Below the pieces are notes generated by a model. The model did no database searches. It saw only the letters and a program-made list of their open reading frames with translations, and was not told the origin of the DNA. From the IMG/VR virus record IMGVR_UViG_3300045988_161152: a DNA stretch of 64,000 nucleotides. The stretch is one strand, 5' to 3'. A program made the translations under genes and the position numbers. Below are positions 22,743 to 26,280 of the stretch, in pieces (positions within the stretch are counted from its first letter, which is position 1; each line of letters opens with the position of its first letter). Origin of the DNA: a virus (lineage: Duplodnaviria; Heunggongvirae; Uroviricota; Caudoviricetes).

Positions 22743-23749
22743 CCACTATTGCCAAAGATCGACTACTGACAATCAAGCAGTGGCGCGAAACATACGGACC
22801 GGGTAGCAACGTTGTACTGCCAGCAGAAGAAGCGGAAGAACTGGCACGAATTGCTCTGGCATCGCTGGAAGCAGAGCCTGTTCTGTATCAGTCCTGCACT
22901 CGCCCCACTTGGAATAGCGGTGTTCCGTGGACGGAATGGAAAGAACGAAGTCGTGAGTGCTACGAAGACGATTTGCGCTTTACAGACACGCCTGACCATG
23001 CCGGTTGGATATACAAATGTCGAAAATTATATACCACTCCGCCAGCGCCGATAGCGTTAGAGGCCATCGAAAACGCAATTGAATACATCCGCAGTATCGC
23101 TTTTCACATCGATGACGACGATTACCACGGCAAACATATTGCGTATTTCATGCGACAAGCATTGGCCTGGCTGGAAGGGCATTCATGCAGCGACGACAGA
23201 CTGGGTAAGGCCGACAATCAACCCGCATCTGGTAACCAGGCTGCCGAATCCAATCGCGGTAATGAGTGGACCGGCAATCCTGATATTGATAACGCCATCA
23301 TCATGCTCGACCGCATAGATACGGCGGAAAGTTGCGATGATGACCGTATTGAGGCCGTTAAGGCTGTGTTGCGTAGACTGGCAGGCAACTATCCGGATAT
23401 TCCGGATAGTTCGGTGCCAGCGCCAGGAAAGGGCGTCACCGGTGAACGTATCCGCATTAAGCCGCATGTTTATCGCGAACTGGTTAACCGTCTCCACGAT
23501 ACAGCGATCAAGTGTGCTGGCACCCAGCAATTACGAGAAAGAATTAGCCGTGTTTTGGGCGACGTTATTACGCCATATCATCATAAACAAGCCGAGAAAA
23601 GCGGTCTGGAAAGGTGTCATCTTGAGGCAGCATTAAACATTAAGCCGGGGCATACGCTTGGCATTATTGATGCACTGTTGGTTCATAAGATGGCCAGGGC
23701 TTTATTGTCGTTGGTGGACGCTGGTGATACAAGCGAGGGTGAAGTATGA
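22739..23749 (+). CDS. Hypothetical acidic protein
   Basis: 336-aa ORF, ATGA-coupled to the upstream gene. Confidence 0.6.
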   Translation: MTTIAKDRLLTIKQWRETYGPGSNVVLPAEEAEELARIALASLEAEPVLYQSCTRPTWNSGVPWTEWKERSRECYEDDLRFTDTPDHAGWIYKCRKLYTTPPAPIALEAIENAIEYIRSIAFHIDDDDYHGKHIAYFMRQALAWLEGHSCSDDRLGKADNQPASGNQAAESNRGNEWTGNPDIDNAIIMLDRIDTAESCDDDRIEAVKAVLRRLAGNYPDIPDSSVPAPGKGVTGERIRIKPHVYRELVNRLHDTAIKCAGTQQLRERISRVLGDVITPYHHKQAEKSGLERCHLEAALNIKPGHTLGIIDALLVHKMARALLSLVDAGDTSEGEV

Positions 23750-24108
23750 GAGTTGCAGATCACATCAAACACCTTGAAAGAATTATCGAAAACGGTGAAC
23801 TCTTAAGAGATCAGATGAGACGCACGGCAGAAGCCAGGGAGGCGATAATCCGCAGTCAGGCTGGTAAATTAAAGCAATTGTCAGAGATTAACACGCTATA
23901 CAAGAACAGACGTAACCGGGCGGTGATGCGGCTTCAGAAAGCACGTAATGAAATTAAATTGGTGGAGGCAAAACTGAAAAAACAGATCCAGCGTTACGAT
24001 CAGCAAGATGCTTTTTATGCCGCCATCAAGGCGGCTGCTAATGAAATAGGCATCTGGAAGTTGCTGGTGGAGAAAGCAAAGACGAAGTTAAATGCCAACG
24101 AAAGCTGA
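23746..24108 (+). CDS. Hypothetical coiled-coil protein
   Basis: 120-aa ORF, ATGA-coupled; last gene of the operon. Confidence 0.55.
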   Translation: MRVADHIKHLERIIENGELLRDQMRRTAEAREAIIRSQAGKLKQLSEINTLYKNRRNRAVMRLQKARNEIKLVEAKLKKQIQRYDQQDAFYAAIKAAANEIGIWKLLVEKAKTKLNANES

Positions 24109-24164
24109 ACTACAGGTGCCCACCAGCACATACAGAAAATGATTGTTTCCACATCAAGGAGATT

Positions 24165-24187
24165 TTAATGTTTCACTGAAACATTAA
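24165..24187. repeat. Perfect 23-bp palindrome TTAATGTTTCACTGAAACATTAA
   Basis: 11-bp arms around a central C; overlaps the stop of the small minus-strand ORF. Confidence 0.5.
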
Positions 24188-24321
24188 GTAAGCCAGTGCA
24201 TAATTCCATTTTTTACTGACCTTAAAAGCAAAATCAAAACGATGATGAGGATAATAGCCAGAATCTGGCTAATAATAGGCGCATCTAAAAATGCACTCAG
24301 GAACTGAAAAAAAGCGTTCAT
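24184..24321 (-). CDS. 45-aa single-pass membrane peptide
   Basis: MNAFFQFLSAFLDAPIISQILAIILIIVLILLLRSVKNGIMHWLT; AGGA about 10 nt upstream of the ATG; sits in an AT-rich non-coding island. Confidence 0.35.
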   Translation of the reverse strand: MNAFFQFLSAFLDAPIISQILAIILIIVLILLLRSVKNGIMHWLT

Positions 24322-25183
24322 TCAGGTGGTTCCTTGTCAAATGTAAAGGTGCACTTGCTCACGTTGACGTAGAAACCCAACCCCTATATAGTTGGATTCG
24401 GTGAATGAAAGTCGTTAACGTGAGCTTACGGCACATGTTTTCGGAAAAACATCAGGGAACGGCTAATTCCTTGATGCGGGTGGGGTCTGTAATACAGACC
24501 CTATCTATTAACGTCATGATTGCATCTCAAATTTTCTCCTTATCTTCAATTAATCTACATTCATTTCATCTGTTAGCCACCACAATATGTAGAAAATGGC
24601 CCTCTTGCAAGTGCATAACTTTGTGGATAACTCAGGAAGGAAAAAGTGGCTTTCGCGCACCTTCGGTCAGACAAGGTGTCCGGGAAAGTCAACGCAAAGA
24701 AAAAAATTGTTAAAAATAACGTTTGTTGGAATTGTATATTTTTATCCCCTTCAATGGTTAGCATTCCATTAACATCTTTTTTTAGAGACAGAAAAACATA
24801 TCGTAACAACATATATACAGTATTAAGAGGCGAGTATTATCCTGCGGTGGGAATTCTGGGCGCTGTTAGATTCGACTTTCTCAGCAGGATTACATCGTCA
24901 ACTTGCGACGTTGCCGTATGACTTTCGTGTAATAGGTGACAATGATGCGGCTAGTGAGTTACTTGTGAAGTTTTTCGGAAAAGGTTTTGTGGCCTCGGAT
25001 CTTGATGAGCTACAGCAACATGAAGTGTCTAATTTGATTTTTAGCCATAGCCAATAAGCCTCCCTCCTCCATCAAGGCCACAATTTGTGACCTTAAACAA
25101 TTTGTTTTCTGCTTTTTCTTATTTGAGAAAATAACGTTGTTGACAGCTAATAGGCTCGTTGTTGTTATACATGCCTGTATAGA

Positions 25184-25540
25184 TTATGACCGTAAATTAT
25201 TAGCGGATTTTAAGCCATATTCACCGTTGTAGAAATTACTCATGTTCCATTCATTAGGAAGTTCTTTTCTGTCCAATGTATAGTGGCGCACGATATAACG
25301 ATCTTCATCTTCTTCGATGGACAGGCGGACATAGCCAATGTGGATCACCGATACGGGCGGTGTTCGTATTGCATAGATGTCGCGGAGATATACCGGTAGC
25401 TCGACAAATGCATCAGGTGCATCTGTGATGCTCGTTTTTTCACAGTATTCATATAACGCATCGTTGATATCGTTAAGAGATTCATGATCGTATATTTCCA
25501 GGTAATTACCGCGATCGCGATGGTACTCGATTTTAGCCAT
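25184..25540 (-). CDS. Hypothetical protein, second gene of a two-gene minus-strand module
   Basis: 118-aa ORF; start abuts the stop of the upstream 194-aa gene. Confidence 0.55.
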   Translation of the reverse strand: MAKIEYHRDRGNYLEIYDHESLNDINDALYEYCEKTSITDAPDAFVELPVYLRDIYAIRTPPVSVIHIGYVRLSIEEDEDRYIVRHYTLDRKELPNEWNMSNFYNGEYGLKSANNLRS

Positions 25541-26125
25541 TCAAAATCCCCTGTTATCGTTTTGCATTTCTCTAATCCGGTTCAGAACTACTTCATGCTG
25601 GGCTTGGATAGCGGCTTTTTCGTTTTCAAGTCGGGCAATAGACATCTCTAATTCTTTGCTGTACCAGGCGAGTTGGGCCAGGTTCATCCGGTTGTGGTCG
25701 AGAGTTGGAGACACTTCGACGCGCTCCCTTTCTTCCTGCTTTAATGAGAAGAGATTCATCTCATCCCTAGAGGAAAATTCAGCAACAATTTCTTGTTGAT
25801 GATCCGGTCGCTGCGGCATCCTCGCCAGTATAAATGGCGGTTCTTTTGAAAACATGAATGTCGGTTCAGAACGTGTTTTCACCCATCTAGCCTGCTGTCT
25901 TTCGGCAAGTTCACAGGCTTCATCATAGTTATTTGCCAAACCAAGCACGGATGGGCGGTCCCACGCGCCACCATTCAGACAATAAACAACAATTTTCCCG
26001 TCATGTTCTGTAACCCCATAGGGATGGTCCCACCAGGCGTCCAGCTGAGCTTTAGAGCGTTTCTCGTTAGGAGTGCAGTCAAAATTTTTGGGCAATACAG
26101 GATCGAGAGGAATGCGATTAGGCAT
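25541..26125 (-). CDS. Hypothetical protein with C-terminal coiled coil
   Basis: 194-aa ORF transcribed divergently from humD. Confidence 0.55.
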   Translation of the reverse strand: MPNRIPLDPVLPKNFDCTPNEKRSKAQLDAWWDHPYGVTEHDGKIVVYCLNGGAWDRPSVLGLANNYDEACELAERQQARWVKTRSEPTFMFSKEPPFILARMPQRPDHQQEIVAEFSSRDEMNLFSLKQEERERVEVSPTLDHNRMNLAQLAWYSKELEMSIARLENEKAAIQAQHEVVLNRIREMQNDNRGF

Positions 26126-26260
26126 AGCTAATTCCTTATTAACTGATTGGCAACGAGGTTACGCTGATCCGTTGGTGATGAATAGTAGCAAAGAGCACAA
26201 AATCATCAGCGGTGGTTGATGTACGTAACGCGTTTGCACCAAAGGTGTCTCTTTAATGTA

Positions 26261-26280
26261 TACTGTATAAATGAACAGTA
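26261..26280. promoter_or_regulatory. LexA box (SOS operator) overlapping the humD promoter
   Basis: TACTGTATAAATGAACAGTA: perfect CTGT-N8-ACAG about 20 bp upstream of the humD ATG and overlapping a TATAAAT -10. Confidence 0.8.

What the first reader, a model, noticed from the sequence alone, without database searches (positions are those of the whole stretch)
24109..25183. AT-rich 1.1-kb non-coding island with a 45-aa membrane ORF, a 23-bp palindrome and an antisense promoter
Between convergent operons lies an unusually long gene-free, AT-rich interval. It contains a perfect 23-bp palindrome (24165-24187), a minus-strand 45-aa ORF with one strongly hydrophobic helix (24184-24321), and near its right edge a sigma70-like promoter with an extended -10 (TTGACA at 25140, TGTTATAC about 19 nt downstream) pointing into the 3' end of the convergent 118/194-aa operon. 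This layout is compatible with a type I toxin-antitoxin-like or sRNA-regulated locus, or an H-NS-silenced acquired segment.
Basis: seen in the sequence. Interest (0 to 1): 0.5.

Follow-up and report, generated by a model that had tools for sequence, protein, structure and literature searches.

The report
Candidate small toxin–antisense RNA module in P1
The "empty" AT-rich gap in this P1/P7-type phage-plasmid has two halves: a conserved unit encoding a 45-residue membrane peptide, driven by a stolen copy of the host nrdA promoter and opposed by a predicted antisense RNA (built like a type I toxin–antitoxin), and a stretch of decayed gene fragments.

Summary
The stated sequence features are all present, but the interval is a mosaic rather than an inert island.

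**Right half (24590–25183):**
- A ~130-bp copy of the E. coli nrdA promoter, 97–99% identical to the host, with two DnaA boxes, on the minus strand.
- A scarred humD 5′ end with half a LexA box.
- The last ~215 nt of a truncated toprim gene.

**Left half (24120–24590):**
- This is a conserved module: nrdA-type promoter, ~254-nt structured leader, 45-aa single-TM ORF, then a 3′ stem-loop (the "palindrome").
- Inside the leader, on the + strand, lies an almost invariant σ70 promoter (24364–24392). It would give a ~110-nt, three-hairpin antisense RNA (z = −5.6; 14 kcal/mol more stable than its complement).
- Against an anciently diverged allele (synonymous sites 40% different), this block is 87–97% identical (P ≈ 1e-19).
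- The ORF keeps 45 codons with no indels, dN/dS ≈ 0.41.

The architecture parallels ldr/rdl and hok/sok. There is no homology to any known toxin or antitoxin family, and no expression or toxicity data exist.

Verdict: a plausible new type I TA-like module, so far supported only in silico.

The parts
24165..24187 (-). It overlaps the TAA stop codon and has no U-tract.
   Evidence: Perfect 11+1+11 palindrome. The hairpin is retained in all three lineages, with a T-A to C-G compensatory change in the divergent allele and a 1-nt deletion in a common P1-type allele. In the divergent lineage it folds only on the ORF strand, -5.6 against -2.0 kcal/mol.
24184..24321 (-). 45-aa ORF (MNAFFQFLSAFLDAPIISQILAIILIIVLILLLRSVKNGIMHWLT), one TM helix and a polar/basic C-terminal tail. 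An AAGGAA Shine-Dalgarno lies at 24330-24335, 8 nt before the ATG. Candidate toxin.
   Evidence: All three lineages have 45 codons and no indels. Amino-acid identity to the window is 95.6% (P1-type) and 57.8% (divergent). dN/dS is 0.41. It is the only frame open in both alleles; joint P(no stop and BLOSUM score at least as high) is 0.04. Annotated as a hypothetical protein by PGAP and in SJ46.
24322..24575 (-). 5' leader of about 254 nt of the ORF45 mRNA. It contains a strong AAGGAG (24536-24541) followed by mini-ORFs: a 9-codon TTG ORF (24530 down to 24501) and a 21-codon ATG ORF (24518 down to 24453). It is the target of the antisense RNA.
   Evidence: The mRNA fold is unusually stable, z = -4.2. 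The SD/mini-ORF block is 33/36 identical and the sRNA-complementary block 98/113 identical to the divergent lineage, against a neutral expectation of about 60%.
24364..24392 (+). Sigma-70 promoter TTGACG-17-TATAGT for the antisense RNA. The P1 record predicts it as 'PupfN'.
   Evidence: 10/12 match to consensus. Annotated as a predicted promoter in NC_005856. 38/39 identical in the divergent lineage, P = 7e-8 against neutral.
24399..24509 (+). Predicted cis-antisense RNA of about 110 nt with three hairpins. The last (core 24483-24501) is terminator-like and followed by UAUCUAUU. Candidate antitoxin.
   Evidence: MFE -42.9 kcal/mol, z = -5.5. The complementary strand gives only -28.8, z = -3.4. 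7-8 of the 35 pairs are G-U, so the helices are specific to the + strand; there is one compensatory pair in hairpin 3. No Rfam family matches.
24582..24722 (-). Captured copy of the E. coli nrdA promoter: -10 TATTGT (24582-24587), -35 TTGCAA (24605-24610), DnaA boxes TTATGCACT (24610-24618) and TTATCCACA (24622-24630), and the upstream AT-rich region. The NrdR operator is absent.
   Evidence: 96.6-98.9% identical over 89 bp to the ypaB/nrdA upstream region in all 5,426 E. coli genomes, in the same orientation as nrdA. The alignment extends the homology to about 130 bp and shows it ends at the -10. The old P1 record annotates a 'nrdA-like promoter' and a DnaA box here. NrdR boxes 1+2 lie downstream of the nrdA TSS (PMC12176259).
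24726..24845 (-). Scar of a humD (umuD-like) 5' end and LexA box. A 13-bp deletion removes the start codon and an 11-bp deletion removes half the LexA box.
   Evidence: Alignment to the intact arrangement in an SSU5-like phage-plasmid, 86% identity; blastn.
24846..25138 (+). 3' remnant (last ~215 nt of 525) of a toprim-domain/primase gene, with its downstream degenerate terminator hairpin (25074-25094).
   Evidence: phrog_17952 'DNA primase', E = 2.4e-26, for the 48-aa ORF at 24911-25057. About 90% nucleotide identity to intact toprim genes in P1-like and SSU5-like plasmids. P7 carries IS903 inside this stretch.
25140..25171 (+). TGTTATACA), at the junction where toprim-downstream homology ends.
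   Evidence: The sequence is present but the scan does not call it. Homology to other elements stops at 25138. It is found only in the P7-type lineage.

Best explanation

1. A minus-strand mRNA starts at a captured host nrdA promoter. The promoter keeps the two DnaA boxes, the -35 and the upstream region, but has lost the NrdR operator.
2. The mRNA runs through a structured leader of about 254 nt and encodes a 45-residue single-pass membrane peptide. It ends in a stem-loop that includes the stop codon.
3. From a conserved sigma-70 promoter inside the leader, the + strand yields a three-hairpin RNA of about 110 nt. This RNA is perfectly complementary to leader positions -76 to -189 relative to the ATG.
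4. Inferred mechanism: as with Rdl/ldr and Sok/hok, the antisense RNA pairs with the leader rather than the toxin RBS. It blocks a leader translation element (the AAGGAG plus mini-ORF region, or a standby site) and/or triggers RNase III cleavage, keeping peptide synthesis off while the phage-plasmid is present.
5. DnaA, acting through the pirated boxes, would tie mRNA synthesis to the host's replication-initiation state.

The right half (24726-25183) is non-functional debris from recombination: a humD/LexA scar, a truncated toprim gene, and a junction.

Shown: the homologies, the conservation pattern, the coding signal and the in-silico folding. Inferred: both transcripts, the toxicity, and the regulatory logic.
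For: - Conservation. Backbone genes of the window and of the plasmid carrying the divergent allele are 97.6-100% identical, yet the module is an old allele: synonymous sites are 40% different and non-functional flanks are 50-63% identical.
- Within the module, the SD/mini-ORF, sRNA and sRNA-promoter block is 169/188 identical, P = 9e-20 against neutral. The DnaA-box/-35 region is 33/39 identical, P = 9e-4.
- The ORF keeps 45 codons with no indels while its flanks carry indels. dN/dS is 0.41, replacements are conservative within the TM segment, and it is the only open frame in both alleles.
- The + strand RNA has z = -5.5 and is 14 kcal/mol more stable than its complement because of 7-8 G-U pairs.
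- The mRNA has z = -4.2.
- The 3' hairpin is conserved on the mRNA strand only.
- nrdA promoter identity and orientation. The native nrdA promoter has the same hexamer quality and is DnaA-regulated (PMC8203912).
- No C1 operator lies in the interval, so expression in the lysogen is possible.
- The architecture matches published ldr/rdl and hok/sok logic (PMC4147584).
- The annotated + strand ORFs upfM/N/O are not conserved as ORFs in the divergent lineage.
- The module is accessory: about 229 plasmids carry it out of about 573 with the P1 pac region.
Against: - There is no expression, toxicity or stability evidence. The only RNA-seq found (P1vir infection) shows reads over upfN, and I do not know whether it is strand-specific.
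- Only three lineages exist, so covariation is not significant: one compensatory pair, with 115/500 shuffles reaching the observed score. Substitutions avoid stems only weakly (7/70 against 8/39, P = 0.15).
- The terminator-like hairpin has a poor U-tract, and the scan did not call it.
- Promoter-like sites in the interval are not enriched over shuffles (3 found, 3.8 expected).
- Sequestration of the ORF's SD is not clearly predicted or conserved.
- The leader mini-ORFs do not overlap ORF45, unlike mok/hok.
- The protein-level constraint is modest (P about 0.04).
- There is no homology to any known type I toxin or antitoxin RNA.
- upfN and upfO knock-downs, and deletions cited in that paper, are non-essential for lytic growth. 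This is uninformative for a TA but shows no strong phenotype.
Confidence: 0.45

Rival explanations
1. ORF45 is an ordinary, non-toxic small membrane protein of the phage-plasmid, for example a modulator of a host membrane protein or an exclusion or lysis-timing factor. The conserved leader is a cis-acting mRNA element (leader-peptide or structure-based translational control) with no functional antisense RNA.
For: The ORF is conserved and has a Shine-Dalgarno. The leader contains a strong AAGGAG plus mini-ORFs conserved in all lineages. The mRNA is highly structured. The + strand promoter overlaps a 13-bp mRNA stem (24357-24369 with 24413-24425) that could by itself explain the conservation there. 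In that stem a C-to-U change in the divergent lineage keeps a G-U pair only on the mRNA strand.
Against: The three helices of the 24399-24512 segment are much more stable on the + strand (-42.9 against -28.8 kcal/mol) because of G-U pairs that become A-C mismatches in the mRNA. The -35 and -10 hexamers with a 17-bp spacer are invariant.
Confidence: 0.25
2. The functional product is a stand-alone + strand small RNA acting in trans on host or phage targets. ORF45 is a fortuitous or decaying ORF downstream of a fossil promoter.
For: The sRNA and its promoter are the best-conserved part, while the ORF is only 76% identical at the nucleotide level. The protein-level constraint is only modest.
Against: The ORF keeps its exact length, start, stop, SD and TM character across about 40% synonymous divergence while its flanks accumulate indels. 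The DnaA boxes and -35 that would drive it are also conserved. No chromosomal region similar to the sRNA was found.
Confidence: 0.1
3. The whole interval is inert, AT-rich recombination debris, possibly H-NS-bound, in a hypervariable region of P1-like genomes, with no functional element.
For: The region is one of eight hypervariable regions of P1-like phage-plasmids (PMC9603915). The right half demonstrably consists of remnants. P7 tolerates an IS903 insertion here. About 60% of P1-like plasmids lack the module.
Against: The left half shows strong purifying selection, P about 1e-19 for the leader block. The ORF is maintained, as is a strand-specific 3' hairpin. The AT bias is modest.
Confidence: 0.1
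4. One reading: the promoter at 25140 produces an antisense RNA into the 3' end of the 118/194-aa operon and is the regulatory heart of the locus.
For: A perfect TTGACA and a TGn-type extended -10-like motif are present.
Against: The -10 is poor: TGTTAT lacks A2, and TATACA lacks T6 with a 20-nt spacer. The scan does not call it. It sits exactly at a homology breakpoint and exists only in the P7-type lineage. It is about 800 bp from ORF45 and has no comparative support.
Confidence: 0.08

Closest known systems
ldr/rdl type I toxin-antitoxin (E. coli LDR repeats)
   Same: A small single-TM peptide is encoded at the 3' part of an mRNA with a long 5' UTR. The cis-antisense RNA is encoded opposite the 5' UTR, not over the RBS or start codon, and a leader ORF (ldrX) is the proposed real target (PMC4147584). 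There is a weak shared motif, QF..F..L.API, at the start of the TM helix.
   Different: The peptide is 45 aa rather than 35. Sequence similarity is not significant (z = 1.4-3.1; no Pfam or NCBIfam hit). The Ldr/Fst signature of a Trp directly after the TM helix followed by a charged cluster is not met. The antisense RNA is about 110 nt rather than about 60. The toxin promoter is a pirated nrdA promoter. The module is single-copy on a phage-plasmid rather than tandem chromosomal repeats.
hok/sok (plasmid R1) and homologues
   Same: A module on a plasmid-type replicon, with an mRNA of about 400 nt, a highly structured leader, and an antisense RNA promoter inside the leader. There is a possible 5'-3' fold-back: a 12-nt complementarity between 24149-24160 and 24468-24479.
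   Different: There is no Hok-family similarity. The leader ORFs do not overlap the toxin ORF, so there is no mok-type coupling. The fold-back is only partly retained in the divergent lineage and is within chance for a region of this size.
tisB/istR-1, dinQ/agrB, zorO/orzO, shoB/ohsC
   Same: The antitoxin RNA pairs within a long 5' UTR far from the RBS, in a standby-site type of control. Toxin transcription is wired to a stress or DNA-status regulator (LexA in tisB and dinQ).
   Different: Here the RNA is fully cis-encoded (perfect complementarity of about 110 nt) rather than divergent with a short match. The regulator sites are DnaA boxes, not LexA boxes. There is no sequence homology.
E. 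coli nrdAB promoter
   Same: About 130 bp are 97-99% identical, including both high-affinity DnaA boxes, the -35 and the upstream AT-rich region, with the same hexamer quality and spacing.
   Different: Homology stops at the -10. The true NrdR operator (boxes 1+2, downstream of the TSS) and the nrdA leader are replaced by the phage leader. The promoter drives a 45-aa ORF instead of ribonucleotide reductase.
P1 upfM/upfN/upfO and P7 Upf91.3-91.7 annotations
   Same: They occupy the same DNA. The predicted promoter 'PupfN' is the antisense promoter proposed here.
   Different: Those ORFs are on the + strand and are not conserved in length or reading frame in the divergent lineage. The conserved coding frame is on the minus strand and is absent from the P1 and P7 reference annotations.

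Membership tests
Type I toxin-antitoxin system (generic) | Small (<60 aa) hydrophobic protein with a predicted TM helix and a polar or bulky C-terminus | tested here: met
   45 aa; residues 16-33 have mean KD 3.4; the C-terminus is RSVKNGIMHWLT. This matches the search criteria of PMC2887945.
Type I toxin-antitoxin system (generic) | An antisense RNA gene overlapping or adjacent to the toxin mRNA, and expressed | tested here: inconclusive
   There is a conserved sigma-70 promoter and a strongly folding, strand-specific RNA of about 110 nt. There are no strand-resolved expression data, and the covariation is not significant.
Type I toxin-antitoxin system (generic) | The toxin is toxic on overexpression and is neutralised by the RNA | not testable with these tools
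   Requires wet-lab induction and co-expression assays.
Type I toxin-antitoxin system (generic) | Long, highly structured toxin mRNA leader | tested here: met
   The leader from the nrdA-type promoter is about 254 nt, and the mRNA has z = -4.2. Sequestration of the SD is not clearly predicted.
Ldr/Fst toxin superfamily | Sequence or profile similarity to Ldr or Fst | tested here: not met
   No Pfam or NCBIfam hit at E <= 1. Pairwise score against the K-12 Ldr peptides gives z = 1.4-3.1, p = 0.01-0.11.
Ldr/Fst toxin superfamily | Conserved Trp immediately after the TM helix, followed by a charged cluster (PMC2887945) | tested here: not met
   The invariant W43 lies about 10 residues after the TM end and is followed only by LT or LI.
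Hok/Gef family with Sok-type control | Hok-family protein, with an overlapping mok-like leader ORF coupled to the toxin ORF | tested here: not met
   No Hok Pfam hit. The leader ORFs end at least 132 nt upstream of the ORF45 ATG.
Known antitoxin sRNA families (Sok, Rdl, IstR, Sib, OhsC, OrzO, SymR and others in Rfam) | Match to an Rfam covariance model | tested here: not met
   The only hit is a sub-threshold BsrG terminator-hairpin match (16.7 bits against a gathering score of 55, E = 0.43).
nrdA-type DnaA-regulated promoter | Two DnaA boxes upstream of and overlapping the -35, with the nrdA hexamers | tested here: met
   TTATCCACA and TTATGCACT, TTGCAA-17-TATTGT; 97-99% identical to the chromosome.
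nrdA-type DnaA-regulated promoter | NrdR operator (boxes 1+2) | tested here: not met
   Homology ends at the -10, and no paired NrdR boxes lie downstream.
Toprim-domain/primase gene | Intact 174-aa ORF | tested here: not met
   Only the last ~215 nt remain, with a 1-nt deletion near the breakpoint. It is a pseudogene remnant.
C1-repressed P1 operon | C1 operator (ATTGCTCTAATAAATTT) near the promoter | tested here: not met
   14 operator-like sites occur in the window, none between 18254 and 28620.

The most novel reading that the evidence does not exclude
A phage-plasmid has pirated the host nrdA promoter, keeping DnaA control but shedding NrdR control, to gate a previously unrecognised membrane toxin held in check by a cis-antisense RNA. 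On this reading, killing or growth arrest by P1-family elements is coupled to the host's DnaA-ATP/replication-initiation status, giving a second, RNA-based addiction or abortive module beside phd/doc. The hairpin-2 loop differs between lineages (GGCUA against UGUGA) while its stem is invariant, which would create lineage-specific antitoxin specificity.
Probability: 0.15. Interest if true: 0.7.

Novelty: new variant of a known kind. Interest (0 to 1): 0.45.

Why it matters
- **Annotation.** P1 is a reference phage, yet its standard annotation places three or four probably spurious ORFs (upfM/N/O) on the wrong strand here. It misses the only conserved coding frame and the conserved non-coding block.
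- **A second addiction-type element.** If the module is a type I toxin-antitoxin, P1-family phage-plasmids would carry one a few kb from phd/doc. It is present in about 40% of P1-like plasmids that spread resistance genes, which bears on plasmid stability, curing strategies and phage-plasmid incompatibility.
- **Host promoter capture.** The near-identical copy of the nrdA promoter shows concretely how a mobile element can wire cargo to a host cell-cycle regulator (DnaA). It also provides a homology patch for recombination with the chromosome.

Tried and rejected
- **Rfam.** An E-value-mode scan of 23500-25800 gave nothing usable.
- **Protein family libraries.** Pfam, NCBIfam, PHROGs and PADLOC gave no family for ORF45.
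- **Protein homology searches.** Word-indexed and exhaustive HMMER searches found only the same two alleles, with frameshifted tails.
- **More lineages for covariation.** I searched viral contigs by DNA motif and by protein, GTDB genomes by protein, and metagenomes with a loop-free stem pattern. All returned the same three lineages and the same two loop variants.
- **Ldr homology.** Not significant.
- **Conserved SD sequestration in the mRNA.** Not supported.
- **C1 operator in the interval.** None found.
- **NrdR site at the + strand -10.** CCCCTATATAGTTGG resembles nrdAB box 1, but it lacks one AT step and has no partner box, so I rejected it as chance.
- **phd-doc as a marker of P1-like plasmids.** Too widespread (1,246 records), so I replaced it with the pac region.
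- **Literature.** I found no paper describing this ORF, RNA or module. The 2004 P1 genome paper is not held.
Full report
**Identity of the window.** The window is a P7-type member of the P1 family of phage-plasmids.
- The query 24000-25300 is 99.8% identical to P7, apart from an IS903 that P7 carries at about 24930. It is 99.6-99.7% identical to SJ46 and other P1-like records.
- Only the left part (24000-24660) aligns to P1 itself, at 96.2%.
- In P1 this DNA is annotated as pmgV-upfM-upfN-upfO, all on the + strand.
- The old P1 record M95666 annotates a minus-strand 'nrdA-like promoter' and a DnaA box.
- The region is one of eight hypervariable regions of P1-like phage-plasmids (PMC9603915).

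**Check of the observation.**
- The palindrome (arms 24165-24175 and 24177-24187), the 45-aa minus-strand ORF (24184-24321) and the TTGACA at 25140 are all present.
- Perfect palindromes with arms of 11 nt or more occur five times in the 64 kb. None occurred in 40 Markov simulations.
- The interval's GC is 39.3% against 47.9% for the window, the 7th percentile of same-length windows. That is moderately AT-rich.

**Right half: debris plus a host promoter.**
- The 48-aa ORF at 24911-25057 matches the C-terminus of a phage primase family (phrog_17952, E = 2.4e-26).
- Positions 24846-25138 are about 90% identical to the last ~215 nt, plus the downstream terminator region, of an intact 525-nt toprim-domain gene. 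That gene is found in some P1-like and in SSU5-like phage-plasmids.
[quoted passage not shown] A 13-bp deletion removes the start codon and an 11-bp deletion removes half the LexA box.
The site therefore lies on a junction, and it exists only in the P7-type lineage.
- P7 tolerates an IS903 inside the toprim remnant.

**The captured nrdA promoter.**
- Positions 24592-24680 are 96.6-98.9% identical to a site present in all 5,426 complete E. coli genomes: the ypaB/nrdA upstream region, in the orientation of nrdA.
- Alignment extends the homology to about 130 bp (up to about 24722) and shows that it ends at the -10.
- The copy keeps both DnaA boxes (TTATCCACA at 24622-24630; TTATGCACT at 24610-24618), the -35 TTGCAA, and a 17-bp spacer to TATTGT. 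Its hexamer quality equals that of the native nrdA promoter.
- It lacks the true NrdR operator, boxes 1+2, which lie downstream of the nrdA transcription start (PMC12176259).
- At nrdAB, high DnaA-ATP represses transcription and DnaA-ADP or low DnaA-ATP activates it (PMC8203912).
- The promoter points along the minus strand toward the 45-aa ORF. The predicted start is near 24575, giving a leader of about 254 nt.

**The ORF.**
- tblastn finds the ORF in 216 plasmids and 13 phage records, in three lineages: P7-type, P1-type (95.6% amino-acid identity) and a divergent type (57.8%). All have exactly 45 codons.
- PGAP and the SJ46 record already call it a hypothetical protein. The P1 and P7 reference records do not.
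- Between the window and the divergent allele, 33 of 138 nt differ with no indel, while the flanks do contain indels.
- pS = 0.40, pN = 0.20 and dN/dS = 0.41.
- It is the only frame open in both alleles.
- In simulations of 33 random substitutions, 42% left the frame free of stops. The joint probability of no stop plus a BLOSUM score at least as high as observed was 0.04.
- No family library, word-indexed search or exhaustive HMMER search finds relatives outside these alleles.

**The leader is the most constrained part.**
- Backbone genes of the window and of the plasmid with the divergent allele are 97.6-100% identical. The module is therefore an old allele brought in by recombination.
- The yardstick is 40% divergence at synonymous sites. 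The 5'-most leader, the pre-ATG stretch and the 3' flank (51-63% identity) look neutral against it.
- The SD/mini-ORF block (33/36), the region complementary to the proposed sRNA (98/113) and the + strand promoter (38/39) are far more conserved. Combined they are 169/188 identical, P = 9e-20.
- The DnaA-box/-35 region is 33/39 identical, P = 9e-4.

**The candidate antisense RNA.**
- The + strand promoter TTGACG-17-TATAGT (24364-24392) matches consensus at 10 of 12 positions. The P1 record predicts it as 'PupfN'.
- It would start an RNA near 24399. The stretch 24399-24512 folds into three hairpins at -42.9 kcal/mol, z = -5.5.
- The complementary strand reaches only -28.8 kcal/mol, z = -3.4. The reason is that 7-8 of the 35 pairs are G-U on the + strand, which would be A-C mismatches on the other strand.
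- Hairpin 3 (core 24483-24501) is terminator-like and is followed by UAUCUAUU. It carries one compensatory U-A to C-G change in the divergent lineage.
- The loop of hairpin 2 differs between lineages (GGCUA against UGUGA) while its 10-bp stem is almost invariant (9 of 10 pairs).
- Formal covariation is not significant: 115 of 500 shuffles reach the observed score. Substitutions avoid stems only weakly (7/70 against 8/39, P = 0.15).
- Viral, GTDB and metagenome searches yielded no further lineages. Comparative power is exhausted.

**The mRNA.**
- The modelled transcript (24585 down to 24150, slightly longer than the predicted mRNA starting near 24575) is unusually stable, z = -4.2.
- It contains a strong AAGGAG (24536-24541), followed by a 9-codon TTG ORF that ends at the foot of hairpin 3, and a 21-codon ATG ORF that lies inside the antisense-target region. 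Both are retained in all three lineages, without evidence of peptide-level selection.
- A 12-nt complementarity between the leader (24468-24479) and the 3' end (24149-24160) recalls the fold-back of hok mRNA. It is within chance for a region of this size and is only partly retained in the divergent allele.
- Sequestration of the ORF's SD is neither clearly predicted nor conserved.
- The palindrome overlaps the stop codon and lacks a U-tract. In the divergent lineage it folds only on the mRNA strand, -5.6 against -2.0 kcal/mol. It is best read as the 3' stem-loop of this mRNA.
- There is no C1 operator between 18254 and 28620, so the module need not be silent in the lysogen.

**Interpretation.**
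- The layout has four parts: a small TM peptide, a long structured leader, a cis-antisense RNA opposite the leader rather than the RBS, and a leader translation element. This is the published logic of ldr/rdl and hok/sok (PMC4147584; PMC2887945).
- Membership in those families fails. There is no Hok, Ldr or Fst profile hit, and pairwise similarity to Ldr is marginal (z = 1.4-3.1).
- The Ldr/Fst signature (Trp plus a charged cluster) is not met, no leader ORF overlaps the toxin ORF, and no Rfam antitoxin family matches.
- I therefore treat it as a candidate new toxin/antisense pair that works like a type I TA, with a DnaA-box promoter pirated from the host.
- Transcripts, translation, toxicity and regulation are all inferred.
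- The only expression data found are from P1vir infection RNA-seq. Log2 values for the four sample columns are pmgV 8.4-10.8, upfN 4.8-8.2 and upfO 1.5-5.3. I do not know what the columns are or whether the libraries were stranded.
- CRISPRi knock-downs of upfN and upfO had no effect on lytic growth, and the deletion survey cited in that paper also lists upfM, upfN and upfO as non-essential.
- The module is accessory: about 229 plasmids carry it out of about 573 with the P1 pac region.

**Verdict.** Its TA/sRNA interpretation is partly supported, by features other than the promoter it pointed to. The finding is a moderately interesting, experimentally tractable candidate, not an established system.

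Noticed in passing
L009 (NZ_CP027358.1) about 2470-2700: SSU5-like phage-plasmids also carry a copy of the nrdA promoter (both DnaA boxes, -35 TTGCAC, -10 TATCTT), next to an intact LexA box and humD. About 55 nt downstream it is followed by a strong intrinsic terminator (AAAAAGCCCAG...CTGGGCTTTTT). This suggests a short RNA of about 75 nt under nrdA-type control.
   Followed up: partly
window 24381-24395 (+): The -10 region of the + strand promoter (CCCCTATATAGTTGG) resembles NrdR box 1 of nrdAB (CCCCCTATATATAGTGTT). It lacks one AT step and has no partner box about 31 bp away, so the resemblance is probably chance.
   Followed up: partly
L004 2501-4733; L005 2501-4733: The divergent ORF45 allele lies about 540 bp upstream of, and co-oriented with, a type I restriction-modification hsdM-hsdS pair that replaces the pmgT-V genes. 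In L004 it is also adjacent to a hot (theta-subunit) gene.
   Followed up: no
window 24291-24404, 24405-24713, 24596-24772, 24646-24921 (+): The P1/P7 annotations upfM/N/O (Upf91.3, 91.4, 91.6, 91.7) are not conserved as ORFs in the divergent lineage and are probably spurious. Upf91.7 runs into the toprim remnant in another frame.
   Followed up: partly
window 24592-24722 against the E. coli chromosome: The P7-type lineage is 97-99% identical to the host nrdA promoter over about 130 bp. P1 itself is more diverged upstream of the DnaA boxes: the P1 record notes a 56-bp stretch 94% identical to E. coli DNA, and my alignment gives 64% identity to the window in the upstream region. This suggests repeated or recent gene conversion with the host chromosome.
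   Followed up: no
window 24156-24182 (+): On the + strand, downstream of pmgV, a strong AAGGAG is followed 6 nt later by a 3-codon ORF (ATG TTT CAC TGA) lying inside the palindrome. Its significance is unknown.
   Followed up: no
proteins P0001-P0004: A few assemblies carry ORF45 alleles with frameshifted or fused C-termini. They may be sequencing errors or occasional inactivation.
   Followed up: no
window 25184-26125 (-) and about 26260-26280: The 194/118-aa operon (Upf94.2/Upf93.6; PHROGs of unknown function) replaces P1's lxr/hot. It shares the LexA site that the P7 record annotates in front of humD. I found no clear minus-strand terminator after the 118-aa gene, so SOS-induced read-through toward the module is conceivable.
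   Followed up: no
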